NCBI GenBank assembly: GCA_964409515.1
Contig: CAYPDY010000004.1
Span: forward strand, 1 to 40,359
Length of the DNA: 40,359 nt
Source of the DNA: an uncultured Dehalococcoidia bacterium
GTDB lineage: Bacteria; Chloroflexota; Dehalococcoidia; UBA2247; RBG-13-53-26
Direction of reading: 5' to 3'
Numbering within the stretch: the first letter of the stretch is position 1; the number at the start of each line of letters is the position of its first letter. Below the pieces are notes generated by a model. That model made no database searches and was not told where the DNA came from. It was given only the letters and a program-made list of their open reading frames with translations. Below are positions 1,528 through 25,485 of the stretch, in pieces. Made by a program: the position numbers and the translations under genes.

Positions 1528-1563
1528 CGCCGTGGTGAACCGATTCCCGCTGAAAGGAGAGAT

Positions 1564-2817: not shown

Positions 2818-2956
2818 AGACAGGCGACCACGCATGATGGCCAGAGCGACCCTGCTGAGAAGAGCGGTGGTGGCACCAACAACGCTTCGGTGGCTGTGAA
2901 CACCACACCCCTCCGAAGCCGGGCAGGAAGATAGAGAAACGGAATGGAGGCGGCTG

Positions 2957-4351: not shown

Positions 4352-4467
4352 CCCTGCAGTGCGCCAGCTGACTGACAGGGGGATTCGTCAGCCCCCGTGC
4401 CCGACGGGAGTCCACTGGCGGATTCTCCACCGGTCCGTGTAACATTGACATTCGGGGGTGACCAGCG

Positions 4468-5862: not shown

Positions 5863-5863
5863 T

Positions 5864-7051
5864 ATGAGCCAGATGACGCAGATGGCCGAAGCAGACTACA
5901 GGAGCCTGGTCCACAGGTGTTTCCGGTGCGGGTTCTGCAAGCTCACCTACGACTACTCGACGGAGGGCTTCAACTGCCCCATGTACCACCGCTTTCGCCT
6001 GGAGACCTACTCGCCTGGCGGGCTGAACTGGCTCATCAGGGCCGCCCTGGTCACGGAGACCATCGGCTGGACGGACCACCTCTCCGAGATCCTGTACGCC
6101 TGCACCATGTGCGGGAACTGCGTTGAGGCGTGCCGCTTCGATTTCCGGAAAGACCTGCTGAACATCTTCAGGCAGGCCAGGGAAGAGGCTATGGACAGGC
6201 AGCTGGGCCTGCCCAAAATGGTCAGCCAGTTCCTGGAGAACGTCTATCTCTACGGCAACGAGTTCCGGGAGGCCAGGGAGACGAGGGGCGACTGGGCCGA
6301 AGGGCTGCCCGTAAGGCACTTCGAGAAGGGGGATGAGTACCTCTACTATGTCGGCTGCGTGGGCTCCTATGACAGCCGCAGCCGGAAGGCAGCCAGGGCC
6401 CTGGGGAGCCTGCTGCTCAAGGCCAGGGTGTCATTCGGCATCCTGGGACAGGAAGAGGAGTGCGACGGAAACGAGGTGCGCCTCCTGGGCGAGCAGGGGC
6501 TGTTCCAGAGGCAGCGGGATCGCAACGTCGAGAGGTTCAGCCAGCTGGGGGTGAAAAAGATCGTGACCCTCTCGCCCCACTCCTACAACGCCATGAAGAA
6601 CCACTACCCCGGCGGCTTCGAGGTGCTGCACTACACGCAGCTCCTGCGCGAGCTCATCCGGGCCGGGGCCCTGCCCCTTCCCGGGTGCTCGACCGGGAAG
6701 GTCACCTACCATGACCCCTGCTTCCTGGGCCGGCACAACGGCGAGTACGATGCTCCCAGGGAGGTCCTTCACTCCGTACCCGGGCTGGAGTTGGTGGAGA
6801 TGGAGAGGGCCCGCAATATGGCCTTCTGCTGCGGCGGAGGCGGGGCCAATTTCTACACTGGCATATCGGCCAAAGGGAAGGACCAGGCCAGCAACGCCAG
6901 GGTGCGGGAGGCGGTCAACTCCGGCGCCAGCGTACTCGCCGTGGCCTGCCCGGTGTGCCTGATGATGCTGGAGGACGCCGCCAAGAGCGAGGGGCTCGAG
7001 GACAGGATAGCGATCAGGGACATAGCCGAAATACTGAACGGCCAGGCATGA
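5864..7051 (+). CDS. Fe-S oxidoreductase with two CCG domains (GlcF/HdrD/LutA-like)
   Basis: Two ferredoxin-type motifs are present (CFRCGFCKLTY..CP and CTMCGNCVEAC). The Cys-rich CCG-type motifs are YYVGCVGSYD, YHDPCFLGRHNG, AFCCGGGG and ACPVCLMM. The gene is adjacent to the GlcD-like gene. Confidence 0.8.
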   Translation: MSQMTQMAEADYRSLVHRCFRCGFCKLTYDYSTEGFNCPMYHRFRLETYSPGGLNWLIRAALVTETIGWTDHLSEILYACTMCGNCVEACRFDFRKDLLNIFRQAREEAMDRQLGLPKMVSQFLENVYLYGNEFREARETRGDWAEGLPVRHFEKGDEYLYYVGCVGSYDSRSRKAARALGSLLLKARVSFGILGQEEECDGNEVRLLGEQGLFQRQRDRNVERFSQLGVKKIVTLSPHSYNAMKNHYPGGFEVLHYTQLLRELIRAGALPLPGCSTGKVTYHDPCFLGRHNGEYDAPREVLHSVPGLELVEMERARNMAFCCGGGGANFYTGISAKGKDQASNARVREAVNSGASVLAVACPVCLMMLEDAAKSEGLEDRIAIRDIAEILNGQA

Positions 7052-12621: not shown

Positions 12622-13626
12622 ATGGAGATCCTCCCGGGCATACACCAGCTGAAGCTGCCGTTCCCCCTCCAGCCGGAGGAGCTGGCCGTCAACGCCTATC
12701 TCATACAGGGGGACGGGGGCTGCCTGCTGGTGGACACCGGCTGGAACATCAACCAGGCGTACTCCGCCATGGAGCGCCAGCTGCGGGAGATCGGCCTGGG
12801 ATTCGCGGACATATCCCTCATCCTGATCACCCACTTCCATCCCGACCACTACGGTCTCGCCGGCCGCCTGGTGCAGGTCTCCGGGGCCAGAGTGGCCCTT
12901 CACCGGATCGAGAGGGACTTCATCGACGCCCGGTACATGAACATGGATGCGCTGCTGGACCAGACCGCCGATATCCTCCGCGCCAATGGCGTGCCGGAGA
13001 AGGACCTCCCGCGGCTGCAGAAGGCCTCCCTGGGTGTCAGGCGGTACGTGGCACCGGTTTCGCCGGAGGTGGTGCTGGAGGGCGGGGAGATCATCGGCCA
13101 GGGACCGTACCGGTTCGAGGTGCTCTGGACGCCGGGGCACTCGCCCGGTCATGTCTGCCTGCTGGAGCGGAACGCGAAGATTCTCATCTCGGGCGATCAC
13201 GTGCTGCCGGCCACCTTCCCCAATGTCGGCCTTCACTCGCAGTCGGGCCCGGACCCACTCCCGAACTACCTGCGTTCGTTGCGGGCCGTCGAGGACCTGG
13301 ACGTTGACCTGGTGCTGCCGGCGCACGAGCACGTCTTCAGCCCGCTGGCGCCGCGGATCCAGGAGATAATCCACCACCATGAAGAGCGGAGGAACGCCAT
13401 CCTGGCTGCGCTCAACGCGGGGCCCCAGACCGCCTACGAGGTGTCGCTGCGGATACCCTGGATCGTGAACGGCCTCAACCTGTCCTACGACCAGCTCCAA
13501 GCCCTGGACCGGCGCCTGGCCGTGATGTCGGCCATGGCCCACCTGGAGCCGCTGTGCAGCGAAGGATCGGCAGCCAGGGTCCAACGGGATGGCATCACGG
13601 TCTACAGCCTGCCGGGGGTCCGGTGA
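12622..13626 (+). CDS. MBL-fold metallo-hydrolase
   Basis: The HxHxDH motif is ITHFHPDHYG, followed by TPGHSPGH. The gene starts 2 nt after the eno stop. Confidence 0.8.
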   Translation: MEILPGIHQLKLPFPLQPEELAVNAYLIQGDGGCLLVDTGWNINQAYSAMERQLREIGLGFADISLILITHFHPDHYGLAGRLVQVSGARVALHRIERDFIDARYMNMDALLDQTADILRANGVPEKDLPRLQKASLGVRRYVAPVSPEVVLEGGEIIGQGPYRFEVLWTPGHSPGHVCLLERNAKILISGDHVLPATFPNVGLHSQSGPDPLPNYLRSLRAVEDLDVDLVLPAHEHVFSPLAPRIQEIIHHHEERRNAILAALNAGPQTAYEVSLRIPWIVNGLNLSYDQLQALDRRLAVMSAMAHLEPLCSEGSAARVQRDGITVYSLPGVR

Positions 13627-14666
13627 AGGCCATCGGGGTAACCACTACCGTCCCCGTGGAAGTGCTCCTGGCTGCCGGCTGCCAGCCGGTGGACCTGAAC
13701 AACCTCTTCATCGGCGACCCTGACCCCGACCGCCTGGTAGGCATCGCCGAGAGGGCGGGCTTCCCCCAGAACTGCTGTACGTGGATCAAGGGCATCTACG
13801 GCGCCTGCGTCGACCGCGGGGTGGGCACCGTGCTTTGCGTGACCACCGGCGACTGCTCCAACACCATCATGCTCATGGAGGTGCTGAAGCTGCGGGGGTT
13901 CAGGGTGATCCCCTTCGCCTATCCGGACCACCCCGATGCCGGCCTGATGCGGGCGCGCCTGCTGGCCCTGGCGGACTCCCTGGGCACCACGCTGGAGGCC
14001 GCGGAAGGAATGAGGCAGGAGCTGGCCCCCTGCCGCCGGCTTACCGGGAGGCTGGACAGGATGACCTGGAAGGAGAACACGGTCAGCGGCTGGGAGAACC
14101 ACATCTGGCTGGTGTCCAGCTCGGATTTTGCCGGCGATCATCATCGATACCGGCGGGAGCTGCAGGGCTTCCTGGCCGAATGCCGCCAGCGCCAGCCCTT
14201 CACTGGAGAAATCCGCCTGGCCTACATCGGCGTGCCTCCGGTCTTCGCCCGGGACCTGCACCGCTTCCTGGAGCAGCACGGCGCCAGGGTGGTATACAAC
14301 GAGGTACAGCGGCAGTTTGCCATGCCCCGCGGCGGAGACTCGCTGGAGGAGCAGTACTCGAACTACACCTATCCCTACTCCATATTCGACCGCATCAAGG
14401 ACATCAGGGCCGAGCTGCGCCGCCGGAGGGTCGACGGAGTCATCCACTACGTTCAGGCTTTCTGTCACCGGGCCATTGGTGATATCATATTCCGTGGGGA
14501 GCTCGACTTGCCCCTGATAACACTCGAAGGAAACGCCGACTACGTGCTGACTCCGCACCTGCGGACGAAGGTGGAGGCGTTCCTCGACCTGATAGGACGC
14601 AGTCGCCGTCAGTCCCGGGAAGCAGGTGGTTCCATGAAAGGTAGGGCGTATGGGTTCAGTTCGTAA
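13623..14666 (+). CDS. 2-hydroxyacyl-CoA dehydratase family protein (HgdB/BcrC-like, single subunit)
   Basis: The likely GTG start overlaps the MBL stop (GTGA at 13623-13626). Cys-containing segments NCCTWIKGIYGAC, TTGDCSNT and DGVIHYVQAFCHRA resemble the HGD-D family. The track ORF begins earlier, at 13554. Confidence 0.55.
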   Translation: MKAIGVTTTVPVEVLLAAGCQPVDLNNLFIGDPDPDRLVGIAERAGFPQNCCTWIKGIYGACVDRGVGTVLCVTTGDCSNTIMLMEVLKLRGFRVIPFAYPDHPDAGLMRARLLALADSLGTTLEAAEGMRQELAPCRRLTGRLDRMTWKENTVSGWENHIWLVSSSDFAGDHHRYRRELQGFLAECRQRQPFTGEIRLAYIGVPPVFARDLHRFLEQHGARVVYNEVQRQFAMPRGGDSLEEQYSNYTYPYSIFDRIKDIRAELRRRRVDGVIHYVQAFCHRAIGDIIFRGELDLPLITLEGNADYVLTPHLRTKVEAFLDLIGRSRRQSREAGGSMKGRAYGFSS

Positions 14667-14852: not shown

Positions 14853-15878
<1,026 letters not shown>

Positions 15879-16020
15879 GCCAAGCCTGTCCCGGCAACGA
15901 TCAGGCTCTTGACGCGAGGCTATCCTGGCATATACCATCGTGCATCATGCTCGTGCAACCAAGCACCTGTCTTGTTCGTTTCTATTGTATGGACCCTTGC
16001 CGCTGCGGACTTGACGGGAA

Positions 16021-19000
16021 ATGAAAATCGGCAGCTCAGCGAGGTGCCGGCGCGCTCTGTTCGTCCTTTTCGTCGCTCTCATGGTCTGCTGCCTGGCCTT
16101 GGGAATTGACGCTCTGCCCCGGCCCTGGCCGGCGGAGTCGAATGCGCCCGCGTCTGAGGCAGCCGCCAGCCCCTCCGTCACCTGCATGCCTTTCGGCCTC
16201 TACGGTGACATCACCACCCGGCCGCTGGTCGACAGGCTAAGCGATGGCGGCGACAACCTGACGTTCGTGGGCACCACCAACGGGCTCTACGTGGTAGCCT
16301 CTGGCGGCAGGCTGCAGCATTTCCTCTACTCACCCTTCGGCATCAGGCACATCGCCCTGATCGACGACACCACCGGTGACGGCACCCGCGAGGTAGTGGT
16401 GGCGCTGAACGACACCCAGGTGCCGGCGCTGCGCTGCTATGACGGCGCGAGCTGGGAGGAGGTATGGCGGTTCGCGCCCATGGCCAGGATCTGGGACCGG
16501 CTGTGGGTGGACCGCCAGAGCATCATCACCAACCTCGAGGTGACCGGCGAGGGGGACTCTATGGGCCTGCTGCTGACCACCGGCCGGTGCGTCCTCTCGG
16601 TGCATGCTGCCGACGGTGCGGAACAGTGGCGCTTCACCGCGTCCTCGGCACTCTGGCGGATGGTGACTCTGGCCGATCTCGACGGCGATGGCTCCGATGA
16701 GGTCCTGGCGGGGTGCAACGGCGGAGACCTCATCTGGCTGGAGGCCGCGACCGGCCGGAAGGAGTGGCAGACGAGGCTGCCGGAGCACGAGAATGCCGGG
16801 TCGGGGGCGGTGTCACACCTGCTGAGCGACATCGCCGTCCTGGATGAAGGAGAAGGACTGCTGGCCACCGCCTCTGGAGACGGCTCGGTGCAGATGTTCG
16901 ACCTGCGGGCCAGGAAGCTCATGTGGGACACGCTGGCCTTCAAGGACACGGGCAGCAATCCCTACATGTCAGACAGCGTGCTGCTGTCGCCGACGGCCGA
17001 CGTCAGCGGCGACGGCCTGGGCGAGCTCCTCCTGAGCCAAGGCCCCGACGCGGGCTCGTACCCCGGGGGTGATACCTACAGCGGATACGCGACCAGCGGC
17101 GGCCGGGCCCTCTGCGACTCCACCGGCCAGGTGGTCTGGCAAACCGACTCATCAGGTGAGGAATCGCTGGTACGGCCCGGCATGGCATTCGAAACCGGCG
17201 TTTTCGAAGGCCAGCCAGTCTTTCTGGACAGGGCCGCCTATGCTGAGAGCGGGGCCGAGTTGGAGATGGTGGACGTCAGGGACGGCCAGTCGGTCCTCCA
17301 TGCAGTCCCGCTGAATGCGATTCAGGGCCACAGCATCGTGGTGAAACAACCCGCGGGGGACGGTTACCTGGCATTCTCATCCAGCAGCGACCTGGCGGCG
17401 ATATCCGCCACCGGCGACCTGCTCTGGCACTATCCCAGGATCACCATCGTCATGGCGGAGAGAGGCAGTTTCGTCGGCAACGGCACGGAGGATGTCCTGC
17501 TCCTTTGCGGGTCCGATGCCGGGCAGAATCCGGGTCAGGAGCCTGTTGTCAGGATGCTCCGGATGATGGACGGGGCCACCGGGGCCGTGGTCTGGTCGTA
17601 CGAAGTGCCGCACGCCGAATGGGTGAGGGGCGGCGGGCTGAGGTCCTTGCAGTTGACTGGGGACTTGGCGGGCAGCGACGGCGTTCAGGACATCGCCGGC
17701 TGCCGCGGAGACAGGGCCTTCATCTTCAGCGGCCGGGACGGGGCCGTCTCCAGCTTCGACGCCGGACAGGCGGTGTCATCCCTGGAGGTCATTCGCCACG
17801 GGGCCAACGGGACGGCCTTTGCCCTAACCACATCCGACTCCGCTGGGCAGGGATACGGGTACGCGGCCGGGCTGCTGATCCTGGACCAGGCGGGCGAACC
17901 GCTGTGGTCGACCGCAACCGCCGCGTGGCTGGGTGAAGAGAGCGGCAGTTTCCTTACCCTGGATGATATCAACTCCGACAACGCCAGCGACCTGGCGGTC
18001 TTCTCCGGCAGCAGGATACTGGTACTGGGGAGCACCGACAACGCCTCGGGCTACGACCTGTGGCAGACCATCCTCCCTGAGAATGGGTTCTCCATCCGGC
18101 TGCCTGAGCTGGTAGGGGACAGTGACGGGGACGGACTGAGGGAGTTGGCCTACCTGCAGGAAAGCTCATCGGAGTCACGCGAGTCCGGAGGCGGATTCTA
18201 CGAAAGCGGCCCGTCTCACTTGCTCTGCGTGCAGTCGCTTGAGGACCGCCGGTCCCTGGTGCGGGCCGACCTGCAGGGCACCATCCGGGGCTACGATCTG
18301 GCCTGCGGGGACTTCAATGCCGATGGAGTATCGGACTCTGTGGTAAGGGTCCTCGAGGCGTTGGGGAGCGAGGACGGGTATCCCGGATACAGAACATGCT
18401 CGAGGATACTCTCCGGCAAGGACGGCGCCCTGATATGGGAGGAGGCCACCGGTGAAGAAGGCTGGGGCTTCAGCTACAGCGACGGGGGAGTGGTCTTCGG
18501 AAGCCTCCTGGCCATGAACGCCGGAGACATCAATGGGGATGGCGCCGACGAGCTGGCCTCGGTCTCCGGCGTGATGGAGGGTCGCCAGTACGGGGGCACG
18601 CTGCGGCAGCAGCGCCTGCAGGTATTCGACGTGGTCCACGACACCTTGCTCAAGGACATCGCCGCAACCCCGCTGCTCCAGGATGACAGCGGGGCCATTG
18701 TCGATGGAGGAGTCGACAGCGCCATGCAATTGGCGAACGCCGGCGCTGACGGCCACGGGGTGGCATTCATGGCGGTCGGCGAGCCGTCATTGCCGACGTA
18801 CGACCCGGACGCGTCAGCCCTCTTCGAGGGCACGGGTTCTCCGCGGCACATCGCCCTCATCGACCTGGAGAGCGGCCGCCGGCTGTGCGCCTTCACCGGC
18901 TTTGACCCGGCCGGCGTCTCGGTGCTGGGGAGTCGGATCCCCGGCACACTGACTGTGGCCGCCTGCGGTGGGCTCTGCTCCCTGCACCTCGACGCTGATC

Positions 19001-19386
19001 TGCTGGTCACCTCGCCCGAGGACGGGGCCAATACTGGGCCTACCGTAGGAGTCTCTTGGGAAAGCCCATCCGGCGGCATGTCCCAGGTATTCGTGGACGG
19101 GGTCCGCAACGATATCACCAACGGCTTCAAATCAGACCTGTATCTGGGCGGCGGAAAGCACGAGGTCGTGGTCCGGTCCGTCGACGACTGGGGGCGGGTA
19201 TCCTACGGGCCCGCCGACCTTGACGCTCCGGTTACCATAGGCGTAGGCCCCTCCCCATGGAAGCCAGCTTGGCTGGTGCTCGGGTTGTTCGCCCTGGTGG
19301 CCGTCGTTCTGGCGCTCCTTTACCCCAGACTGCACCGGGCGTGGCGGGCACGAAGACTGCCGCACGGAGGTTCGAATGGCCACTAA
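16021..19386 (+). CDS. giant membrane-anchored FG-GAP/PQQ-like beta-propeller repeat protein (paralog 1)
   Basis: An N-terminal signal peptide (ALFVLFVALMVCCLALG) is present. Many DxDGDG-type motifs occur (DLDGDGSDEV, DVSGDGLGEL, GDSDGDGLREL, GDFNADGVSD, GDINGDGADEL), interleaved with W-containing blades (EQWRF, KEWQTRLP, LLWHYP, VVWSYEVP). The C-terminus carries a TM helix (AWLVLGLFALVAVVLALL) and a basic tail. Confidence 0.75.
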   Translation: MKIGSSARCRRALFVLFVALMVCCLALGIDALPRPWPAESNAPASEAAASPSVTCMPFGLYGDITTRPLVDRLSDGGDNLTFVGTTNGLYVVASGGRLQHFLYSPFGIRHIALIDDTTGDGTREVVVALNDTQVPALRCYDGASWEEVWRFAPMARIWDRLWVDRQSIITNLEVTGEGDSMGLLLTTGRCVLSVHAADGAEQWRFTASSALWRMVTLADLDGDGSDEVLAGCNGGDLIWLEAATGRKEWQTRLPEHENAGSGAVSHLLSDIAVLDEGEGLLATASGDGSVQMFDLRARKLMWDTLAFKDTGSNPYMSDSVLLSPTADVSGDGLGELLLSQGPDAGSYPGGDTYSGYATSGGRALCDSTGQVVWQTDSSGEESLVRPGMAFETGVFEGQPVFLDRAAYAESGAELEMVDVRDGQSVLHAVPLNAIQGHSIVVKQPAGDGYLAFSSSSDLAAISATGDLLWHYPRITIVMAERGSFVGNGTEDVLLLCGSDAGQNPGQEPVVRMLRMMDGATGAVVWSYEVPHAEWVRGGGLRSLQLTGDLAGSDGVQDIAGCRGDRAFIFSGRDGAVSSFDAGQAVSSLEVIRHGANGTAFALTTSDSAGQGYGYAAGLLILDQAGEPLWSTATAAWLGEESGSFLTLDDINSDNASDLAVFSGSRILVLGSTDNASGYDLWQTILPENGFSIRLPELVGDSDGDGLRELAYLQESSSESRESGGGFYESGPSHLLCVQSLEDRRSLVRADLQGTIRGYDLACGDFNADGVSDSVVRVLEALGSEDGYPGYRTCSRILSGKDGALIWEEATGEEGWGFSYSDGGVVFGSLLAMNAGDINGDGADELASVSGVMEGRQYGGTLRQQRLQVFDVVHDTLLKDIAATPLLQDDSGAIVDGGVDSAMQLANAGADGHGVAFMAVGEPSLPTYDPDASALFEGTGSPRHIALIDLESGRRLCAFTGFDPAGVSVLGSRIPGTLTVAACGGLCSLHLDADLLVTSPEDGANTGPTVGVSWESPSGGMSQVFVDGVRNDITNGFKSDLYLGGGKHEVVVRSVDDWGRVSYGPADLDAPVTIGVGPSPWKPAWLVLGLFALVAVVLALLYPRLHRAWRARRLPHGGSNGH

Positions 19387-20314
19387 CGTGATAATAGAAA
19401 CCCGGGGACTGACCAAGAGATTTGGCAAGCTGGTGGCCGTGGACGGCCTCGATGTGAAGGTCGACACCGGAACGATCCACGGATTCGTGGGACCCAACGG
19501 GGCTGGAAAATCAACCACCATCAAGCTCCTGGTGGGTGCCATCAGGCGCACCAGCGGCGTGGGGTTCATCAAGGGGTACCCCATCGGTTCGGTGGACGCG
19601 CGCCGGGCCATCGGCTACTCCCCGGAGCGTCCCTCCTTCTACAAGGACTGGACCGCCTTCGACTACCTGGTCCACATGGCCGCCCTGAGCGGGATCAAGA
19701 CGGCCGAGGCCGAGCGGCGCAGCCAGGAGCTCCTGGAGTGGCTGGAGCTGAGCGACTTCGCCGGGGCCAGGGTAGGAGGATTCAGTGCCGGCATGAAGCA
19801 GCGCCTGAGCATCGCCCAGGCCATGACCCACAAACCCGAGCTGCTGGTCCTGGACGAACCCACCGCCAACCTGGACCCTGATGGCCGGATGTCCCTCCTG
19901 GAAAAGCTCAAGAGCCTGCCCCGGGAACAGGGCGTGACCGTCTTCATCAGCAGCCACATCCTCTCGGAGCTGGAGTACCTGATCGATTCCGTCACCCTGA
20001 TCAACAAGGGCCGCACGGTGGCCGAGGACAGCATCAAGGACATGAAAGAGGACATGGCCCTGAACCGCTATGTCTTGAACACCTCGAACAACGAGGCGGT
20101 GATGAAGGCCTTGCAGGGGCACCCGTCCATACAGGAAATGAAGAGCGGCGCCGATGGCGTCATCCACATCAGCAGCCCCGATATGGGGAAGCTCCAGGTG
20201 GCCGTAATGGAGGCGGTGACCAAGACGGGCAGCCTGCTGAAAACCTTCGGCGAGGAACAGGTGAGGCTGGAGGACATCTACCGCAGCACCATGGACCAGG
20301 GAAAGGACAAGTAG
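19376..20314 (+). CDS. ABC transporter ATP-binding protein (ABC-2/CcmA-type)
   Basis: Walker A is GPNGAGKST, the signature is FSAGMKQRL and Walker B is LLVLDEP. The start overlaps the upstream gene by 11 nt. Confidence 0.9.
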   Translation: MATNVIIETRGLTKRFGKLVAVDGLDVKVDTGTIHGFVGPNGAGKSTTIKLLVGAIRRTSGVGFIKGYPIGSVDARRAIGYSPERPSFYKDWTAFDYLVHMAALSGIKTAEAERRSQELLEWLELSDFAGARVGGFSAGMKQRLSIAQAMTHKPELLVLDEPTANLDPDGRMSLLEKLKSLPREQGVTVFISSHILSELEYLIDSVTLINKGRTVAEDSIKDMKEDMALNRYVLNTSNNEAVMKALQGHPSIQEMKSGADGVIHISSPDMGKLQVAVMEAVTKTGSLLKTFGEEQVRLEDIYRSTMDQGKDK

Positions 20315-21262
20315 ATGGGAATGTTGGCCATTGTCCGAAAGACGCTCATCGACCTCACGGGCTGGAAGAGGACGCTTACCCTCCTGGTGCTCGGCCTGCT
20401 GCTGCCGGTGCTCATCGGCATTTTCTGGCGCTTTGAGTTGCAGAACGCCGGGCTGTCTCCGGAGATGGAGACCTACGTGGTGGTCAAGCACTTCATCGGC
20501 ATCTCCTTCATCTGGACCGCGGGGTTGTTCCTGGCCATGGCCGTGGTGACCAACGCCGCGGGTGCCTTGTCCAAGGAGGCCAGCGACGGCACGCTTCTCA
20601 CGCTGGTCAGCAAACCGATATCCCGCCGCCAGATCGTCCAGGGCAAGTTCGTCGCCATAGTGGCACATGCCTTCCTCATGACCGCCATCATACTGCTGGT
20701 CCAGGCCATTGTTCTCTGGTTCATGCTTCCGGTCGAGGCTCCCAGCTTCGCCGCCCTGCTGGCCGCCATCCCCTGGGTCCTGCTCTACTCGCTGCTGGTG
20801 ATCCTGGTCTTCGCCTCAGTATCACTGGCCCTGTCCTCCCTTATCGACAACCAGGTGGCCATAACGGTCCTGGCCTGCGGGGTGGTCCTGTTCATGTTCC
20901 TCTTCGGCCCCATCAGCAGCATGTTCGGCCTGCACTCGCCGTCCTACGAGAATAACCATATCTACCTGATGGACGGCTCCTACCAGCTGGGCAACGCCTT
21001 CGCGCCCGCCCTCGAACAGGCGCTCGGCGGAGAGATGCTGCCCGCCAGCGAGCTGGGAGAAATGAAGGTCTTCGCCGGCATCTTCCAGGGGGGGAGGTGG
21101 GAAGATGAGTACACGGACTGGGAGAACTCCTCGGAGTACCAGTACCCGGGGGAGCTGGCCAACTACGTGAGCCCCTGGGTATCGGTCGTTCTGCTGATGG
21201 TTCTGGCCGGCGGATCCCTGGCCGTGGCCATCGCGGCGACGGAGAGAAAGGATGTCGGGTAG
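20315..21262 (+). CDS. ABC-2 family permease with a large extracytoplasmic loop
   Basis: The gene starts on the base after the ATPase stop. It has six hydrophobic segments. A polar insert of about 80 aa (HSPSYENNHIYLMDGSYQ...EYQYPGELANYVSPW) precedes the last TM. Confidence 0.75.
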   Translation: MGMLAIVRKTLIDLTGWKRTLTLLVLGLLLPVLIGIFWRFELQNAGLSPEMETYVVVKHFIGISFIWTAGLFLAMAVVTNAAGALSKEASDGTLLTLVSKPISRRQIVQGKFVAIVAHAFLMTAIILLVQAIVLWFMLPVEAPSFAALLAAIPWVLLYSLLVILVFASVSLALSSLIDNQVAITVLACGVVLFMFLFGPISSMFGLHSPSYENNHIYLMDGSYQLGNAFAPALEQALGGEMLPASELGEMKVFAGIFQGGRWEDEYTDWENSSEYQYPGELANYVSPWVSVVLLMVLAGGSLAVAIAATERKDVG

Positions 21263-24200
21263 GGACGCGGGAATGACCAGGATTGCGCGACTGCTGGCCA
21301 TCCTGCTGATGACAGCCTGCATTATCGATGCCGGCCTGCTGGCCGGCATCGTACCACATGGCGGCCTGGCCTCACGGACTCGCGCCGCTCCTGCCGCACT
21401 GTCAGCTTCAGGTCACGGGGCGGCCGCCGCCGCCCCGTTGGCTGAGGCCTCGGTCACCTGCCAGCCCTTCGGTTTCTGTGGAGAAGGCTCGGCGGAGACG
21501 TTGGTGGCCAGCTTCAGTGACAGCAGCGGTGATCTTATCCTCCAGGGGACCTCCATCGGGCTCTATGTCCTGGGCCTGGACGGCTCCCTGCGGCATTTCC
21601 TCCACACCCCGTTCGGAGTGCGTTTCGTGGCCCTGATCGACGATATCACCGGCGACGGCAACAGGGAGGTCGTGCTGGCGCTGGGCGGCACGCAGGTGCC
21701 CGCGCTCCGCTGCTACGATGGAGCTACATGGGAGAAGCTGTGGCAGTACGCGCCGATGGTGAAGGTCTGGGACGACAGGCACTGGGTGGAGCGACAGACA
21801 TCCATCGCGAGCCTGGCGGTGATACGGGATGAGGGCTCACCGGGCCTGGCTGTGGTCTCCGAGGGGCGGGTGCTGGGCGTCGATGCCAGGGACGGCACCG
21901 AGCGCTGGCGGTCGGGCGCCACGCGCAACGCCAGCCGCCTGGAGGCCCTCGGCGATCTCGACGGCGACGGCGCCGATGAAGTCTTCGTGACCGCGACGGA
22001 CGGCCGCCTCTTCCTGCTCCATGGACGCACGGGTGAAATCGGGTGGCAGACCCGGCTCCCGGAACAGACGTCTGGCGGCGAGGTCACGCAGGCAGCGCCG
22101 GGGACCACCCTGGTGCTGGACGCCGAAGAGGGCCTGTTAGCTGTGGCCGCCACGGACGGGCTGGTGCGGTTGTATGACCTCAGGGCCAAGAGGCTGGATT
22201 GGGATGCCGGTTTCTCAGGGGACGATACGGGCTCCGTGGGCCCCATGGTGCTGGTTCCCAATGCCATGCCCGATGGCCGGCCCGGGATCCTGGCATCATA
22301 CAGCAACTCCGTTCCACTAGGTGACGGGTCCATGGAGATGCGGCAGAGGATGGCCCTGCTCGATCCCGCCGGGAACAGGCTGTGGGATAGGGATGGAGGC
22401 AACGGCTGGAGCCTCAACGTCGGCAACTTCGGGGGCCGGCCGGTCTTGATCCAGCCCGCGGAGGAGGAGATCAGACTGATCGACCTGGCCGATGGCCAGT
22501 CAGTGGTCAAGACTATAGCCACCGGCGCTCTGCAGGAAGGCGCCGGGAATGTAAGCCAGATCGGGTCGGATGCCTTCCTGGTCGGCAGTGAGATGACGGC
22601 CCTGTCCTCGACGGGAGACGTTCTGTGGCACTACCCTCTCATCGATAACGTCAGGGCAACATCCGGGGACTTCGTCGGTGACGCCACCGAGGATACTCTC
22701 TTCAGCGGTGAATGGGAAAGGGAGTCCTGGGTACGCGGTCCTGGCGTCAACGAGGACGGCATCACGCTGGCCGCTCCTCCTTACACGACCCCGGTGGAGG
22801 CGCCGGAGCCTGAGGTGCGCCTGCTGAAGGTAATGGACGGGGCGACCGGAGAGATCGCCTGGTCCTACGAGGTGCCGCCGGGCGACATGAAGGACGAGGG
22901 CGGACTGAAGGGACTGGAGATAGCCGCCAACCTGGTGGGCGATGACGGCGGCCAGGATATCGTCTGCCACCGCGGCGACTCCGTCCTCATCTTCGACGGC
23001 CAGACGGGAACGTCCTCCAGCTTCCCCACGGGTCAACCGGTGGAGTCGCTGCAGGTCATGCGGGGAGGGGGCTCCCGCAGGGCACTCGCAGTCGTCGCCG
23101 CCGACAACCTGACCATCTTCGACATCACCGGCGCCGCCCTCTGGACCACCACGGGCGCCGAATGGGTCGACGGCGAAACCGTCAGGCTCACCACCCTGGA
23201 CGACCTCAACTCCGACAATGTCAGCGACCTGGCCGTCCTCTGTGAGAGCCGGATCGTCCTTCTGGAGAGCGTTGGCAGCGCTGCCGCTTATCAGCCGCAC
23301 CTGACCTTCGATGCGGAGACGGGTTGCCTGATCGAGTTCGCGCAGGTGGTGCCCGACGCCAACGGAGACGGCGTGAGAGAGCTGGCCTACATCCAGCGGG
23401 ACCCGGGAACGCCGCAGGCTGACCAGGAGTGGGATAAGATCCCCAGCCAGCCCCCGCAGCCCCTTTTGGTGAAGCGTTCCCCGGTCGGCGGGGAGCAGCT
23501 CCTGCGAATCACTATCCCCGGATGGAACTCCGCCGTCGAGCTCTCCTCCGGAGACTTCGATGGCGACGGCTGCCCCGACGCGCTCATCTGCTGTGACTCC
23601 TACCAGATATACGGTGACCCTAGTTCCCCCGGGGAATACGGTACGGTGCTGAGGGCGGTCTCCGGCAGGGACGGGGCGACCCTGTGGGAGCACCTGTTGA
23701 CCAACAAGTCGTCCTGGACCGTGAACGGATGGAAGTCCAGCCTCCCGGCCGGCAGTGCGGGGGATGTGACTGGTGACGGCAAGGACGACCTGGGCTGGAC
23801 GTCCTACTCGTCGGTTGAGGCTTATTCCGGCTACTACTGCATCCAGCAGTATGTGGAGGTCTACGATGTGGCCCGTGACCGGCCGGTGGCCACCGTGCCG
23901 GCGAGCCCGCTGCTGGGAGAGGACGCCGGCGGGTACGGCTGGGTCGAGTACCCCCTGCTATTCCCGGGCGATGTGAATGGCGACGGCCGCGCAGAGGTGC
24001 TGGCCGGGGTGAGCGAGCCGACGACGGCCCCCCTCGTCGGGTCCCCATATGCCAACTACGTGGCCGTGCTGGACCTGCAGGCCGGCGAGCGCCTGGCGGC
24101 GTACCTGGGGTTCAGTCCGTTATCGATCTCCCTGTTTGAAACCCATCGGCCCGGGGTGCTGGGCGTGGCCGGGGCCGGCGGCATCTACTTCCTGAACACG

Positions 24201-24602
24201 GAGGCCAGCCTGCAGATCACTTCGCCGGCGCAGGGGGCGAGCACCGGGCCGACGGTGGACGTCCGGTGGGAGGGCACCGCCGAAGGGGAATTCGTCCAGG
24301 TGTTTGTCGATGGAGTGCGCAACCACACGGGCAACGGATCCGAGGTCCGGCTGTACCTGGGCCGCGGAGAGCACGATATCGTGGTCTGGTCCATGGACGA
24401 CTGCGGCCGGATACTCTACGGGCCCGCGGGCCTGGGCGTCCCGATATCGGTCAGGGTCACGGCTTCCCCCTGGAAGCCTGTCATGCTGGTGCTGACCCTG
24501 CTGGTGGTGGCAGCCTTCATCCTCGCCCTGCTCTACCCCAGGCTGCACCGCATATTGCGAGCCCGGCAGAGGGCGGCGAAGATGCAGGCCCAGCGCCCCT
24601 GA
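21252..24602 (+). CDS. giant membrane-anchored FG-GAP/PQQ-like beta-propeller repeat protein (paralog 2)
   Basis: It aligns with 16021..19386 by eye at both ends: SVTC(M/Q)PFG...LRHFL..PFG(I/V)R..ALIDD.TGDG.REVV.AL..TQVPALRCYDGA.WE at the N-terminus and VDGVRN...LYLG.G.H..VV.S.DD.GR..YGPA.L..P...SPWKP...LLYPRLHR at the C-terminus. The ATG lies after GGAGAGAAAGG and overlaps the permease by 11 nt. Confidence 0.75.
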   Translation: MSGRDAGMTRIARLLAILLMTACIIDAGLLAGIVPHGGLASRTRAAPAALSASGHGAAAAAPLAEASVTCQPFGFCGEGSAETLVASFSDSSGDLILQGTSIGLYVLGLDGSLRHFLHTPFGVRFVALIDDITGDGNREVVLALGGTQVPALRCYDGATWEKLWQYAPMVKVWDDRHWVERQTSIASLAVIRDEGSPGLAVVSEGRVLGVDARDGTERWRSGATRNASRLEALGDLDGDGADEVFVTATDGRLFLLHGRTGEIGWQTRLPEQTSGGEVTQAAPGTTLVLDAEEGLLAVAATDGLVRLYDLRAKRLDWDAGFSGDDTGSVGPMVLVPNAMPDGRPGILASYSNSVPLGDGSMEMRQRMALLDPAGNRLWDRDGGNGWSLNVGNFGGRPVLIQPAEEEIRLIDLADGQSVVKTIATGALQEGAGNVSQIGSDAFLVGSEMTALSSTGDVLWHYPLIDNVRATSGDFVGDATEDTLFSGEWERESWVRGPGVNEDGITLAAPPYTTPVEAPEPEVRLLKVMDGATGEIAWSYEVPPGDMKDEGGLKGLEIAANLVGDDGGQDIVCHRGDSVLIFDGQTGTSSSFPTGQPVESLQVMRGGGSRRALAVVAADNLTIFDITGAALWTTTGAEWVDGETVRLTTLDDLNSDNVSDLAVLCESRIVLLESVGSAAAYQPHLTFDAETGCLIEFAQVVPDANGDGVRELAYIQRDPGTPQADQEWDKIPSQPPQPLLVKRSPVGGEQLLRITIPGWNSAVELSSGDFDGDGCPDALICCDSYQIYGDPSSPGEYGTVLRAVSGRDGATLWEHLLTNKSSWTVNGWKSSLPAGSAGDVTGDGKDDLGWTSYSSVEAYSGYYCIQQYVEVYDVARDRPVATVPASPLLGEDAGGYGWVEYPLLFPGDVNGDGRAEVLAGVSEPTTAPLVGSPYANYVAVLDLQAGERLAAYLGFSPLSISLFETHRPGVLGVAGAGGIYFLNTEASLQITSPAQGASTGPTVDVRWEGTAEGEFVQVFVDGVRNHTGNGSEVRLYLGRGEHDIVVWSMDDCGRILYGPAGLGVPISVRVTASPWKPVMLVLTLLVVAAFILALLYPRLHRILRARQRAAKMQAQRP

Positions 24603-24636
24603 GACACTGAGGCCGGTGGGCGCCCCGGGGACCTGA

Positions 24637-25485
24637 TCACCACACGCCCTGCGCCAGGGGGACCGAGGCGCGCTCGGCGAGGACTATGGCATTCTTGGTG
24701 CACAGAGAGCGGCAGATGCCGCAGCCGTAGCACCGCCGGGGGTCTATGACCACCTTCTCGTGGGCAATGCTGTACCCCATGGCCCCGAACTGGCAGACCC
24801 GCATGCACTGGCGGCACCCGTTACACGCCTCGGGATTCACTTCGGCCACGTACTCCGCCCGGAACATCACCGGGAACTTCATGGTGACCGTGGACCGCAT
24901 CGCCGCGCAGTCGGACCGGTCGCAGTTGCAGATGCCGCCGATGAACGGGGTGATGAAGGTCCAGACGGTGTGGCACAGGCCCTTCCTCTCCAGGTCCCGG
25001 AGGCTGGCCAGGGCCTCTCCTTTGGACAGCGGCTCCAGCCCGCGGGTGTCCGGGCCGCTCAGGTAGCTGGCATCAATCTGCCGCACCATCTGATAGAGCC
25101 GCGATTCCTCGTGGGACACCATGCTGATTCCGTAGCAGTGCCGCTGCTCACTGCCCACCAGCGCCTGGCGGCAGATGCAGGGCAGCCTGACGACGGAGTT
25201 GATGAAGGTGAAGATGCGCTCCACCTCCTCGATGGGCACCACCTGGCCGTAGTGGGTCTTCTTCTGCCGGTTGACCGCCAGCGGATTGATGACGGACCGG
25301 ACGAACGCCGGAGCACGCTCCAGCCTCTCCAGCTTCCGTTGGCCTTCACTGATATGCTCCGGGGACCCCAGGAACTCCATGATGAAACTGCGCCGCCGCA
25401 GGTCGCTCAGCAGGTCCTCGGAGTAGTTCTCGGCCCGCAGGTACCACTTCTGGCCTTCGCCGTGCTTGTGACAGAACTCGCACAT
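24637..25485 (-). CDS. 4Fe-4S dicluster domain protein of unknown function
   Basis: The N-terminus is MCEFCHKHGEGQKWYL. The C-terminal motifs are CNGCRQCMRVCQ and CYGCGICRSLCTKNAI. The SD is GGAGGTGG. Confidence 0.65.
   Translation of the reverse strand: MCEFCHKHGEGQKWYLRAENYSEDLLSDLRRRSFIMEFLGSPEHISEGQRKLERLERAPAFVRSVINPLAVNRQKKTHYGQVVPIEEVERIFTFINSVVRLPCICRQALVGSEQRHCYGISMVSHEESRLYQMVRQIDASYLSGPDTRGLEPLSKGEALASLRDLERKGLCHTVWTFITPFIGGICNCDRSDCAAMRSTVTMKFPVMFRAEYVAEVNPEACNGCRQCMRVCQFGAMGYSIAHEKVVIDPRRCYGCGICRSLCTKNAIVLAERASVPLAQGVW

What the first reader, a model, noticed from the sequence alone, without database searches (positions are those of the whole stretch)
16021..24602. ABC-2 exporter sandwiched between two paralogous 1100-aa membrane-anchored beta-propeller proteins in one translationally coupled operon
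**Coupling.** Four plus-strand genes are linked without gaps. The giant-1 stop overlaps the ATPase start by 11 nt (19376-19386). The ATPase stop abuts the permease start (20314/20315). The permease end overlaps the giant-2 start by 11 nt (21252-21262).

**The giants.** Both have a signal peptide. Both carry roughly 1000 aa of FG-GAP-like Ca-binding loops (DxDGDGxxE) alternating with PQQ/BamB-like Trp-containing blades, probably forming two or more propellers. This is followed by a beta-sandwich-like module, a single C-terminal TM helix and a short basic cytoplasmic tail.

**The permease.** It has an unusual extracytoplasmic insert of about 80 aa before the last TM.

**Interpretation.** The symmetric arrangement suggests stoichiometric assembly of an envelope machine (exporter plus two surface propellers), not a random neighbourhood. 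I cannot name a characterised system with this architecture. Possible roles are surface-layer or adhesin anchoring, export and capture of a lipid or polymer, or a motility- or contact-related apparatus.
Basis: partly seen in the sequence, partly recalled or inferred. Interest (0 to 1): 0.75.

Follow-up and report, generated by a model that had tools for sequence, protein, structure and literature searches.

The report
Propeller giants partnered with NosFY-like ABC
This is an uncharacterised gene cassette, so far seen only in uncultured Chloroflexota (mostly Dehalococcoidia), in which a huge membrane-anchored beta-propeller surface protein is always encoded next to a small ABC transporter whose membrane subunit most resembles NosY; in this genome the giant has been duplicated, and the second copy is an optional extra.

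Summary
Four co-directional genes (giant-1, ABC ATPase, ABC-2 permease, giant-2) sit at the stated coordinates with the stated overlaps. The giants are 40% identical paralogs with a signal or anchor helix, multiple propellers, an Ig-like module, a TM helix and a basic tail.

Across about 25 independent related loci, the conserved unit is three genes: giant, ATPase, permease. These loci span at least five genomic contexts and include a sister family with a coiled-coil insert. The second giant occurs only in one syntenic Dehalococcoidia lineage and is absent from close relatives. The symmetric "sandwich" is therefore a lineage-specific duplication.

The system also has a nameable analogue. By both fold (top 11 Foldseek hits, TM-score about 0.7) and profile search, the permease's nearest solved relative is NosY of NosDFY. 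NosDFY is an ABC-2 machine that carries a large extracytoplasmic partner and has the same partner-ATPase-permease gene order. Membership of the Nos, Gld, BamB and PQQ families fails on every scored test.

My best reading is that the giant is the accessory subunit of a NosFY-like ABC-2 motor or extruder. It would dock through conserved membrane-proximal parts, while its variable propeller faces bind an unknown external partner. I rate this a new variant of a known kind, of moderate interest.

The parts
15879..16020 (+). Intergenic gap between GAPDH and giant-1; probable promoter region of the operon.
   Evidence: A comparable 128-336-nt gap precedes giant-1 in the syntenic loci L001, L002, L004 and L009. 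The only sigma-70-like site in 15700-24900 lies here, at 15909-15938, although the count is not above chance. That this region holds the promoter is an inference.
16021..19386 (+). Giant-1 (1121 aa). N-terminal signal or anchor helix, multi-propeller ectodomain (PQQ_2 and FG-GAP_3), Ig-like module, C-terminal TM helix (residues 1079-1105) and the RLHRAWRARR tail. It is the ancestral first-position partner gene.
   Evidence: It falls in the clade of first-position giants. 90% identical to P0035.
19376..20314 (+). ABC ATPase (312 aa) of the DrrA/ABCA/NosF class. Walker A is GPNGAGKST, the signature motif is FSAGMKQRL, Walker B is LLVLDEPT, and the H-loop His is present.
   Evidence: Pfam ABC_tran 94 bits. 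TIGR01188 DrrA subfamily 222 bits, below its 312 cut-off. In the PDB, ABCA nucleotide-binding domains score about 170 bits and NosF 121 bits. The motifs were read from the translation.
20315..21262 (+). ABC-2 (type V) permease, 315 aa, 6 TM helices, NosY-like. It has a conserved extracytoplasmic TM5-TM6 loop at about residues 206-285.
   Evidence: PF12679 ABC2_membrane_2, 62 bits. The AF2 model has pLDDT 82. The top 11 Foldseek hits are all NosY. NosY is the only PDB sequence the family profile matches, E = 8.7e-5. Loop residues Y211, D220, Y223, N227, G238, G239 and P243 are invariant in 30 sequences.
20930..21169 (+). Region encoding the permease's extracytoplasmic TM5-TM6 loop. The first ~45 aa are nearly invariant and helical; the last ~25 aa are variable and disordered. 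I propose it as the docking surface for the giant.
   Evidence: helices 208-213, 221-236, 248-254; pLDDT below 50 at 258-279. The docking role is an inference.
21252..24602 (+). Giant-2 (1116 aa). A paralog of giant-1 with the same architecture. It is a lineage-specific second copy and is dispensable in related genomes.
   Evidence: Absent in L002, L009/L010, L018, L019, L020 and the sister loci.
24204..24569 (+). Region encoding giant-2's Ig-like module, TM helix and RLHRxxRAR tail (residues 985-1106). Together with residues 67-160, this is the part best conserved between the paralogs. The equivalent region in giant-1 is at about 18991-19356.
   Evidence: G1/G2 identity is 0.55 in the Ig-like module and 0.64 in the TM helix plus tail, against 0.34-0.37 in the propeller bulk. 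Two other genomes show the same pattern. The RLHRxWRARRR-type tail, allowing single conservative substitutions, is present in 37 of 37 core-family members.

Best explanation
The cassette encodes a three-component envelope machine confined to uncultured Chloroflexota (mostly Dehalococcoidia). The components are a homodimeric NosY-like ABC-2 permease, its ATPase, and a ~1100-aa membrane-anchored multi-propeller giant that acts as the transporter's extracytoplasmic accessory subunit.

**Shown.**
- The giant, ATPase and permease are co-inherited as a unit in a fixed order.
- The permease's nearest solved relative is NosY.
- The giant's best-conserved parts are its first blades, its membrane-proximal Ig-like module, its TM helix and a fixed basic tail. 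The bulk of the propellers diverges quickly.
- The first half of the permease's TM5-TM6 outer loop is nearly invariant.

**Inferred.**
- The giant docks on the permease dimer through these conserved parts.
- ATP binding and hydrolysis move the permease dimer, and this motion is passed to the giant. That would be mechanotransmission as in NosDFY, where (from my own knowledge of Muller et al. 2022) the ATPase cycle switches NosD between partners.
- The variable propeller faces engage an unknown external ligand or partner protein.

**The second giant.** In this window's lineage the giant gene was duplicated and the copy was placed after the permease. The two paralogs keep the presumed docking parts and differ elsewhere. 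They most likely occupy the two equivalent sites of the two-fold-symmetric permease dimer, or alternate on it, giving the same motor two different outward-facing surfaces.
For: **Co-conservation.**
- The order giant, ATPase, permease holds in the window, L001, L002/3, L004/5, L006-8, L009/10, L018, L019, L020 and L021-L036. This covers different flanking genes, a 30%-identity relative (P0039) and the sister family.
- No other neighbouring gene is conserved.
- In the reverse direction, every permease homolog found on a long contig shares that contig with a giant (matching contig lengths; checked directly).

**Link to NosY.**
- Foldseek ranks 1-11 are all NosY. Ranks 1-9 have E-values from 2.3e-6 to 8e-4, and the target-normalised TM-scores over the 11 hits are 0.61-0.78.
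- NosY is the only PDB sequence the family profile matches.
- NosF is among the ATPase's PDB hits.
- JGI gives the permeases the COG1277 "multi-copper enzyme maturation permease" name.

**Conservation pattern.**
- The permease is 65-94% identical across the same-length core-family hits (41-55% in a few more distant relatives), while the giants are 39-77% identical.
- Conservation in the giant peaks at residues 81-160 and 1041-1080.
- The tail motif is fixed in 37 of 37 core members. A C-terminal TM helix plus basic tail is present in 69 of 73 long members.
- In three genomes the paralog pairs keep 55-72% identity in the first blades, the Ig-like module, the TM helix and the tail, against 34-38% elsewhere.
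- The conserved loop positions in the permease are listed.

**Catalysis.** The ATPase has intact catalytic motifs.
Against: - No physical interaction was tested. Neither complex prediction nor model coordinates were available.
- Gene linkage fits functional coupling without a stable complex equally well.
- Similarity to NosY is at fold level (about 20% identity) and says nothing about the substrate.
- By sequence the ATPase is closer to the nucleotide-binding domains of ABCA lipid exporters (about 170 bits) than to NosF (121 bits). That would fit a true exporter.
- A basic tail is expected from the positive-inside rule anyway. Only its exact conservation is unusual.
- I could not show that residues 81-160 lie close to the membrane in the model.
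- The giant/ATPase spacing reaches 379 nt in some loci, so translational coupling is not a family trait.
Confidence: 0.45

Rival explanations
1. Extrusion and hand-off. The ABC-2 pair is a true exporter or extractor that pulls a lipid, lipid-linked glycan or other hydrophobic molecule out of the membrane and passes it to the giant. The giant acts as acceptor or scaffold at the cell surface, as the extracellular domains do in ABCA1 or the Lpt bridge does for LptB2FG. The giant is still a dedicated partner, but a substrate crosses or leaves the membrane.
For: - The ATPase's best PDB matches are the nucleotide-binding domains of ABCA lipid exporters, at about 170 bits.
- After NosY, the permease's next structural matches are ABCG2, ABCG25, ABCG5/8 and PmtCD, all true exporters of lipophilic substrates.
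- The co-conservation evidence fits this reading as well as it fits the best explanation.
Against: - No lipid-, glycan- or polymer-synthesis gene is conserved next to the module in any context.
- The nearest relative by both fold and profile is NosY, which is not known to translocate a substrate (my knowledge of the NosDFY work).
- Propellers are not typical lipid-binding folds.
Confidence: 0.28
2. Surface coat or adhesin with a loosely linked exporter. The giants are S-layer-like or adhesin proteins of a wall-less or monoderm Dehalococcoidia envelope, anchored by their C-terminal helix as in archaeal S-layer proteins. The ABC-2 pair only supports them indirectly, for example by exporting a modifying group, or is a housekeeping exporter kept in the same operon for co-expression.
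For: - The architecture is a large, acidic ectodomain with a C-terminal TM anchor and a short basic tail: 144-146 D+E against 71-78 K+R.
- The exposed propeller bulk diverges quickly.
- A gene duplicate is present with diverged surfaces.
- Published work discusses S-layers in Dehalococcoidia; these papers were listed but I did not read them in depth.
Against: - The fixed gene order and the strict co-occurrence of the permease clade with giants, across about 25 independent loci and two subfamilies, are stronger than a loose association would predict.
- The cytoplasmic tail motif and the permease's outer loop are both highly conserved, which points to specific contacts.
- There is no evidence on abundance or on lattice formation.
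Confidence: 0.17
3. The cassette is a divergent member of an already described system (Nos copper-enzyme maturation, Bacteroidota GldAFG gliding, PQQ-dehydrogenase-associated ABC, BamB) or of an anti-phage defence system.
For: - Database names given to homologs: "outer membrane protein assembly factor BamB", "PQQ-binding-like beta-propeller repeat protein" and "multi-copper enzyme maturation permease".
- Weak NCBIfam hits to GldA, GldF and PQQ_ABC_ATP.
Against: - All the equivalog scores are far below their cut-offs: GldA 176 against 403, GldF 26 against 289, BamB 16-20 against 285, PQQ_ABC_ATP 137 against 302, PQQ dehydrogenase 19 against 480.
- The giant is a propeller, not a NosD beta-helix or a GldG-type protein.
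- No nosZ, nosL or nosR, and no gld genes, are nearby.
- PADLOC models hit only the generic ATPase fold.
Confidence: 0.03

Closest known systems
NosDFY (NosD-NosF-NosY), the ABC-2 assembly machine for nitrous oxide reductase; PDB 7O0Y, 7ZNQ, 7QBA
   Same: - The permease has the NosY fold. Foldseek ranks 1-11 are all NosY, with target-normalised TM-scores of 0.61-0.78 and about 20% identity. NosY is also the only PDB profile hit.
- The ATPase is NosF-like (121 bits).
- A large extracytoplasmic partner is encoded immediately upstream, in the same partner-ATPase-permease order.
- The permease is a single gene, so presumably a homodimer.
   Different: - The partner is a ~1100-aa multi-propeller protein with its own C-terminal TM anchor and basic tail. 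NosD is a soluble periplasmic beta-helix of roughly 400-450 aa (size from memory).
- No nosZ, nosL or nosR is nearby.
- The TM5-TM6 loop is about 40 aa longer than in NosY.
- The host is a Chloroflexota lineage, probably monoderm.
- The partner gene is duplicated in this lineage.
GldA-GldF-GldG, the gliding-motility ABC transporter of Bacteroidota
   Same: An ABC-2 ATPase and permease with a large membrane-anchored accessory protein encoded next to the permease. GldG is described as a transmembrane protein that likely forms the transporter together with GldA and GldF (PMC5682007). There are weak NCBIfam hits to GldA (176 bits) and GldF (26 bits).
   Different: - The scores are far below the equivalog cut-offs.
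- The giant shows no GldG-type (ABC_transp_aux) signature in Pfam.
- The gene order differs: gldG lies downstream of gldF.
- The phylum and the envelope type differ.
- No gliding or T9SS genes are present.
Integrin alpha subunits and bacterial integrin-type FG-GAP propellers
   Same: FG-GAP repeats with D-x-D-x-D-G calcium-loop motifs (Pfam FG-GAP 51 bits in G2; motifs), followed by an Ig-like module, a single TM helix and a short conserved basic cytoplasmic tail. This is the same overall layout as an integrin alpha chain.
   Different: - There is more than one propeller, and the N-terminal one is PQQ/BamB-like.
- Only one Ig-like module is present.
- The tail motif is RLHRxWRARRR, not KxGFFxR.
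- There is no beta-subunit.
- The gene is linked to an ABC transporter.
- The bacterial integrin-type propellers surveyed by Chouhan et al. 2011 lacked TM anchors (PMC3192720).
EMC1 (ER membrane protein complex subunit 1) and DDB1-type multi-propeller scaffolds
   Same: These are the best full-length structural matches: 6WW7_A and 7ADO_A with target-normalised TM-scores of 0.33-0.35, and DDB1 with E about 1e-15. EMC1 also combines tandem luminal propellers with a C-terminal TM helix that packs into a membrane machine.
   Different: - Sequence identity is 9-10% and the global TM-scores are low.
- These proteins are eukaryotic.
- The resemblance is one of fold class and layout only and is not evidence of homology or shared function.

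Membership tests
NosDFY (nitrous oxide reductase maturation ABC system) | Permease of the NosY type (ABC-2, 6 TM helices) | tested here: met
   Met at the fold and profile level only. Foldseek ranks 1-11 are all NosY. The profile hit to NosY has E = 8.7e-5. PF12679 scores 62 bits. No NosY equivalog model was hit in NCBIfam.
NosDFY (nitrous oxide reductase maturation ABC system) | Extracytoplasmic partner is NosD, a right-handed beta-helix protein | tested here: not met
   The giants are beta-propeller proteins (Pfam PQQ_2 and FG-GAP; AF2 model and Foldseek hits). There is no NosD or beta-helix hit.
NosDFY (nitrous oxide reductase maturation ABC system) | Genomic association with nosZ, nosL or nosR | tested here: not met
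   None was found among the window's ORFs scanned with Pfam or in the gene tables of the related loci. The rest of the genome was not available.
GldAFG gliding-motility ABC transporter | GldA and GldF equivalog scores (TIGR03522, TIGR03518) | tested here: not met
   GldA scores 175.6 bits against a cut-off of 402.6. GldF scores 25.8 bits against a cut-off of 288.5.
GldAFG gliding-motility ABC transporter | GldG-type auxiliary protein | tested here: not met
   No ABC_transp_aux or GldG hit for either giant at E <= 0.1.
BamB (outer membrane protein assembly factor), the name some databases give to homologs | TIGR03300 equivalog score; a ~380-aa 8-bladed lipoprotein of diderm bacteria | tested here: not met
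   16.0 and 20.3 bits against a cut-off of 285.2. The proteins are 1100 aa long with a C-terminal TM anchor.
PQQ-dependent dehydrogenases and the PQQ-associated ABC system (TIGR03075, TIGR03864) | Family-level scores for the propeller and for the ATPase | tested here: not met
   TIGR03075 scores 19.4 bits against a cut-off of 480. TIGR03864 scores 136.8 bits against a cut-off of 302.
ABC-2 / type V ABC transporters (general class) | ABC_tran ATPase with intact motifs plus an ABC2_membrane-family permease with 6 TM helices | tested here: met
   PF00005 scores 94 bits. PF12679, PF12698 and PF01061 are above or near their cut-offs. Six TM helices are predicted. The Walker A, signature, Walker B and H-loop motifs were read.
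Integrin alpha-type proteins | A 7-bladed FG-GAP propeller with calcium loops, Ig-like legs, one TM helix and a KxGFFxR tail, paired with a beta subunit | tested here: inconclusive
   FG-GAP repeats, calcium-loop motifs, an Ig-like module, a TM helix and a basic tail are present. The tail motif differs, there are extra PQQ-like blades, and no beta-subunit is encoded nearby. The layout resembles integrin alpha, but membership is not shown.
S-layer or surface-coat protein | Forms a surface lattice; very abundant | not testable with these tools
   This needs proteomics or cryo-ET of the organism, which is known only from MAGs.
Anti-phage defence systems (PADLOC) | A hit to a defence-specific component | tested here: not met
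   The giants and the permease have 0 hits. The ATPase gives only generic ABC/AAA similarity.

The most novel reading that the evidence does not exclude
The giant plus NosFY-like ABC pair is a previously unrecognised class of ATP-driven surface machine in wall-less or monoderm Chloroflexota. In it, a cytoplasmic ATPase cycle is transmitted through an ABC-2 permease to an integrin-alpha-like anchored propeller and switches its outward-facing binding state. This would be a bacterial form of inside-out activation of an adhesion or capture receptor. The duplicated giant in this lineage would give a heteromeric, two-headed version.
Probability: 0.15. Interest if true: 0.8.

Novelty: new variant of a known kind. 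Interest (0 to 1): 0.5.

Why it matters
- ABC-2 transporters that act on a large extracytoplasmic partner, instead of simply pumping a solute, are known from very few worked examples. NosDFY is the only one with structures, and GldAFG is still unexplained.
- This cassette is a third, clearly delimited case. The partner has a completely different fold and carries its own TM anchor and conserved cytoplasmic tail.
- It is restricted to Dehalococcoidia and other Chloroflexota, whose cell envelope is poorly understood and which have few cultured members.
- It gives a concrete, testable candidate for a surface machine in these abundant sediment bacteria.
- It corrects misleading database names ("BamB", "PQQ-binding").
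- The natural variation (one giant, two giants, or giants with a coiled-coil insert) is a ready-made comparative series for structural work.

Tried and rejected
- **Genome-collection scans.** The scan with G2 alone found nothing.
- **Alignment A3.** A 12-sequence C-terminal alignment was too divergent for pattern design. It was replaced by A4.
- **PDB sequence search.** Single-sequence searches found nothing meaningful for the giant or the permease. Only the profile and fold searches were informative.
- **Pro at the TM boundary.** I hypothesised a conserved Pro at the cytoplasmic end of the giant's TM helix. It is present in only 34 of 69 members and was dropped.
- **Terminator after giant-2.** No hairpin is better than in shuffled sequence (z = +2.0). 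The terminator-like sites in the region number 4 against 3.5 expected.
- **Defence-system reading.** Rejected.
- **tRNA and Rfam scans of the window.** Both empty.
- **Literature.** One query was wasted on an author-name match for "Nosy". The primary NosDFY paper (Muller et al. 2022, Nature) is not held, so statements about its mechanism rest on my own knowledge and on a citing preprint.

Full report
**1. What is in the sequence**

- 16021-19386, giant-1 (G1), 1121 aa
- 19376-20314, ATPase, 312 aa
- 20315-21262, permease, 315 aa
- 21252-24602, giant-2 (G2), 1116 aa

The junctions are also as described. G1 overlaps the ATPase by 11 nt, the ATPase stop abuts the permease start, and the permease overlaps G2 by 11 nt. 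Each internal start is preceded by a Shine-Dalgarno-like sequence. One caveat applies. The family's consensus N-terminus aligns with Met8 of G2, whose ATG is at 21273. If that is the real start, the last junction is a 10-nt gap and not an overlap.

G1 and G2 are paralogs, 40% identical over 1091 aa. Pfam places them above the gathering score in PQQ_2 and FG-GAP_3 (both giants) and in FG-GAP and the FAM234A/B beta-propeller (G2). The ATPase is ABC_tran and the permease is ABC2_membrane_2.

Each giant has an N-terminal hydrophobic helix, 4-6 calcium-loop-like DxDGDG motifs, one C-terminal TM helix and a basic tail. The permease has 6 TM helices and an outer loop of about 80 aa between TM5 and TM6.

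The flanking genes are housekeeping genes. Upstream lie enolase, a metallo-beta-lactamase-fold protein, an HGD-D protein and GAPDH. Downstream, on the opposite strand, lie a ferredoxin and ZnuBCA. The cassette is therefore a discrete unit. The window has no tRNA or Rfam hits.

**2. Structure**

The AlphaFold2 model of G2, built with a 39-sequence family alignment, has mean pLDDT 80 and pTM 0.78. Its parts in order are:
- helix 8-31
- a disordered Ala/Pro-rich linker, 29-63
- about 68 beta-strands from residue 68 to 982
- an 8-strand Ig-like sandwich, 988-1069
- a TM helix, 1074-1114

By my strand count there are 26 strands between 597 and 982. That fits a 7-bladed FG-GAP propeller, and four or five of the calcium-loop motifs lie there. 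About 42 strands lie in 68-592, or roughly 8-10 PQQ-like blades. I had no model coordinates, so the blade and propeller numbers are estimates.

Foldseek against the PDB returns only generic multi-propeller scaffolds at 9-10% identity: DDB1, EMC1, Gemin5 and UTP proteins. EMC1 shares the layout of tandem propellers plus a C-terminal TM helix. I treat this as fold class, not homology. Sequence searches of the PDB find nothing for the giant.

The permease model has pLDDT 82 and pTM 0.85. Its best 11 Foldseek hits are all NosY chains from the NosDFY and NosFY structures, with TM-scores of 0.61-0.78 normalised to the target and about 20% identity. ABCG2, ABCG25, ABCG5/8 and PmtCD rank lower.

A profile of 30 family permeases matches exactly one PDB sequence, NosY (E = 8.7e-5, TM2-TM5). 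JGI independently gives these permeases the COG1277 "multi-copper enzyme maturation permease" name.

The ATPase belongs to the DrrA/ABCA/NosF class and has intact Walker A, signature, Walker B and H-loop motifs.

From the NosY alignment I estimate that NosY's TM5-TM6 loop is about 40 aa. The loop here is therefore a lengthened version of an existing loop. Its first ~45 residues are nearly invariant in the family and form short helices. The last ~25 residues are variable and disordered.

**3. Distribution and co-conservation**

*Family size.* A word-indexed search of 5.8 billion proteins finds about 40 giant clusters. All come from metagenomes or MAGs, and the only organism labels are Dehalococcoidia.

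An exhaustive HMM search of 1.84 billion cluster representatives finds about 20 end-to-end family clusters at the 50% identity level. It also finds a sister group of 1100-1350-aa proteins. These share the whole architecture but carry a 100-250-aa highly charged, coiled-coil-like insert where the two propeller regions meet. Below about 230 bits there are only generic FG-GAP/VCBS proteins. The sister group is likewise labelled Chloroflexota or Dehalococcoidia.

*Gene contexts.* I examined contexts through the gene tables and by my own ORF and HMM mapping of every fetched locus. In every locus with at least ~0.5 kb beyond the giant's 3' end, the giant is followed directly by the ATPase and then the permease. 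That amounts to about 25 independent loci:
- the window
- L001, L002/3, L004/5 and L009/10, which share the window's synteny
- L006-8, a 30%-identity giant with different upstream genes and an 8-nt overlap
- L018, on a 1.84-Mb contig with RNase II upstream
- L019 and L020
- 16 sister-family loci, L021-L036

L037 matches over only 46 residues and is uninformative.

In the reverse direction, the permease family has 56 clusters, mostly 65-94% identical to the window's. Every member on a long contig shares that contig with a giant. No other neighbouring gene is conserved across contexts.

That did not happen. Linkage of a giant to the ABC pair is about as strong as comparative genomics can show.

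*The second giant is not part of the conserved unit.* It is present in the window, L001, L004/5 and L011. By matching contig lengths it is probably also present on the contigs that carry P0002/P0036 and P0004/P0035. All of these lie in the GAPDH...ferredoxin/Znu syntenic lineage.

Within that same synteny, L002 (a 315-kb contig) and L009/L010 have the giant, ATPase and permease followed directly by the ferredoxin gene. L018, L019 and L020 also lack a second giant. So do all the sister loci, which have up to 8 kb of downstream flank.

A neighbour-joining tree puts first-position giants, including the "solo" P0030 and P0037, in one clade. Second-position giants fall in other clades. That fits an old duplication within one lineage followed by loss in some genomes.

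*Junction spacing.* The giant/ATPase spacing varies between loci: -11, -8, -4, +24, +40, +54, +220 and +379 nt. The permease/G2 spacing is +40 to +67 nt in the other loci. The ATPase/permease junction is always 0-1 nt or overlapping. The fully gap-free arrangement is a local feature of this window.

**4. Where the constraint lies**

The permease is much better conserved than the giants (65-94% against 39-77% identity).

Within the giant, conservation peaks at residues 81-160 (0.76-0.86 mean column conservation) and 1041-1080 (0.78). The family mean is 0.60.

A C-terminal TM helix plus basic tail is present in 69 of 73 long family members. Allowing single conservative substitutions, all 37 core-family members carry the motif RLHRxWRARRR. 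That is more than the positive-inside rule requires.

In three genomes with both paralogs, G1 and G2 share 55-72% identity in the first blades, the Ig-like module, the TM helix and the tail. They share only 34-38% in the rest of the propellers.

The pattern is therefore a common, constrained, mostly membrane-proximal set of parts plus rapidly diverging distal surfaces.

**5. Mechanism**

*Shown.*
- The three genes form a co-inherited module.
- The permease is NosY-like.
- The ATPase looks catalytically competent.
- The conservation pattern is as described in section 4.

*Inferred.* The giant is the accessory subunit of the ABC-2 dimer. It docks through its Ig-like module, TM helix and tail onto the permease, whose invariant TM5-TM6 loop is the obvious outer contact. 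ATP-driven movements of the dimer then act on the giant. Its variable propeller faces bind an external partner that I cannot identify.

The model for this is NosDFY. [quoted passage not shown] From my own knowledge of Muller et al. 2022, which is not held in the library, the ATPase cycle switches NosD between partners.

Because the permease is encoded by one gene and should form a two-fold-symmetric dimer, two docking sites are expected. In lineages with two giants, the paralogs may fill one site each or compete for the sites. I put 0.45 on this reading.

*Main rival (0.28).* The pair really extrudes a lipid or other hydrophobic molecule and hands it to the giant. In its favour, the ATPase is closest to ABCA nucleotide-binding domains, and ABCG and PmtCD transporters are the next-best permease folds. 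Against it, no biosynthetic genes are linked to the module.

*Surface-coat or adhesin reading with only loose coupling (0.17).* It fits the architecture and the fast divergence. It explains the strict linkage, the fixed tail motif and the invariant loop poorly.

*Membership of Nos, Gld, BamB, PQQ-associated or defence systems (0.03).* It fails every scored test.

**6. Comparison and novelty**

The closest known systems are:
- NosDFY: same permease fold, same gene order, same logic of a large outer partner
- GldAFG: an ABC-2 pair plus a membrane-anchored accessory protein (PMC5682007)

The giant's layout resembles an integrin alpha chain: an FG-GAP propeller with calcium loops, an Ig-like module, a TM helix and a short conserved basic tail. 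The bacterial integrin-type propellers surveyed in PMC3192720 lacked TM anchors.

None of these is a membership. The partner's fold, its own anchor, the tail motif, the phylum and the lack of nos or gld genes all differ. I found no paper describing this family. Databases call the giants "BamB" or "PQQ-binding-like beta-propeller repeat protein", and the scores do not support either name.

I class the cassette as a new variant of a known kind: ABC-2 transporters with a dedicated extracytoplasmic accessory subunit.

**7. Verdict**

The linkage is real, but the conserved machine has three genes, not a symmetric set of four. A characterised analogue, NosDFY, can be named.
- Interest is moderate (0.5). 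The family is well delimited, uncharacterised, restricted to one phylum and structurally distinctive, and it comes with a natural one-giant / two-giant / insert-bearing series. Its function remains inferred, and the finding does not by itself resolve a long-standing question.

Noticed in passing
Proteins P0113, P0114, P0118, P0135; loci L021-L036 (e.g. L025 6068-10261, L035 6803-10450): A sister family of the giants carries a 100-250-aa highly charged (E/R/K/Q-rich) coiled-coil-like insert where the two propeller regions meet. It corresponds to about residue 590 of giant-2. These giants are also followed by the ATPase and permease and never by a second giant.
   Followed up: partly
L018 11145-12203: On the 1.84-Mb contig, a 352-aa protein with both N- and C-terminal TM helices and no Pfam hit lies directly after the permease, where giant-2 sits in the window. 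It might be a different accessory component.
   Followed up: no
window 35469-36695 (-): A 407-aa ORF with a DUF2460 hit (a phage/GTA-associated domain, 36.8 bits) sits among housekeeping genes (radical SAM, Memo-like, ThiD2/ThiE). A syntenic copy is present in L011.
   Followed up: no
window 253-7051 (+): A cluster of two CoA-transferase family III genes, a GMC-type FAD oxidoreductase, an FAD-linked oxidase and a CCG/4Fe-4S protein (GlcD/GlcF-like). It looks like a hydroxy-acid or acyl-CoA oxidation module.
   Followed up: no
window 13554-14666 (+): The listed GTG start of the HGD-D ORF overlaps the preceding metallo-beta-lactamase-fold gene by 73 nt and gives 370 aa. Orthologs in L001, L002 and L004 are 347 aa and overlap by 4 nt, so the real start is probably near 13623.
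   Followed up: partly
window 14868-15938 (-) and 15122-16024 (+): Long ORFs (356 and 300 aa) overlap the GAPDH gene in other frames and have no Pfam hits. They are almost certainly artefacts of the high G+C content.
   Followed up: yes
window 24603-24636: Only 34 nt separate the giant-2 stop from the stop of the convergent ferredoxin gene. No stable terminator hairpin is present (fold energy is worse than in shuffled sequence, z = +2.0).
   Followed up: yes
L002 15420-17277 and L009 15014-16888: In the two syntenic genomes that lack giant-2, the convergent ferredoxin-like gene is duplicated (two ~282-289-aa Fer4 genes instead of one).
   Followed up: no
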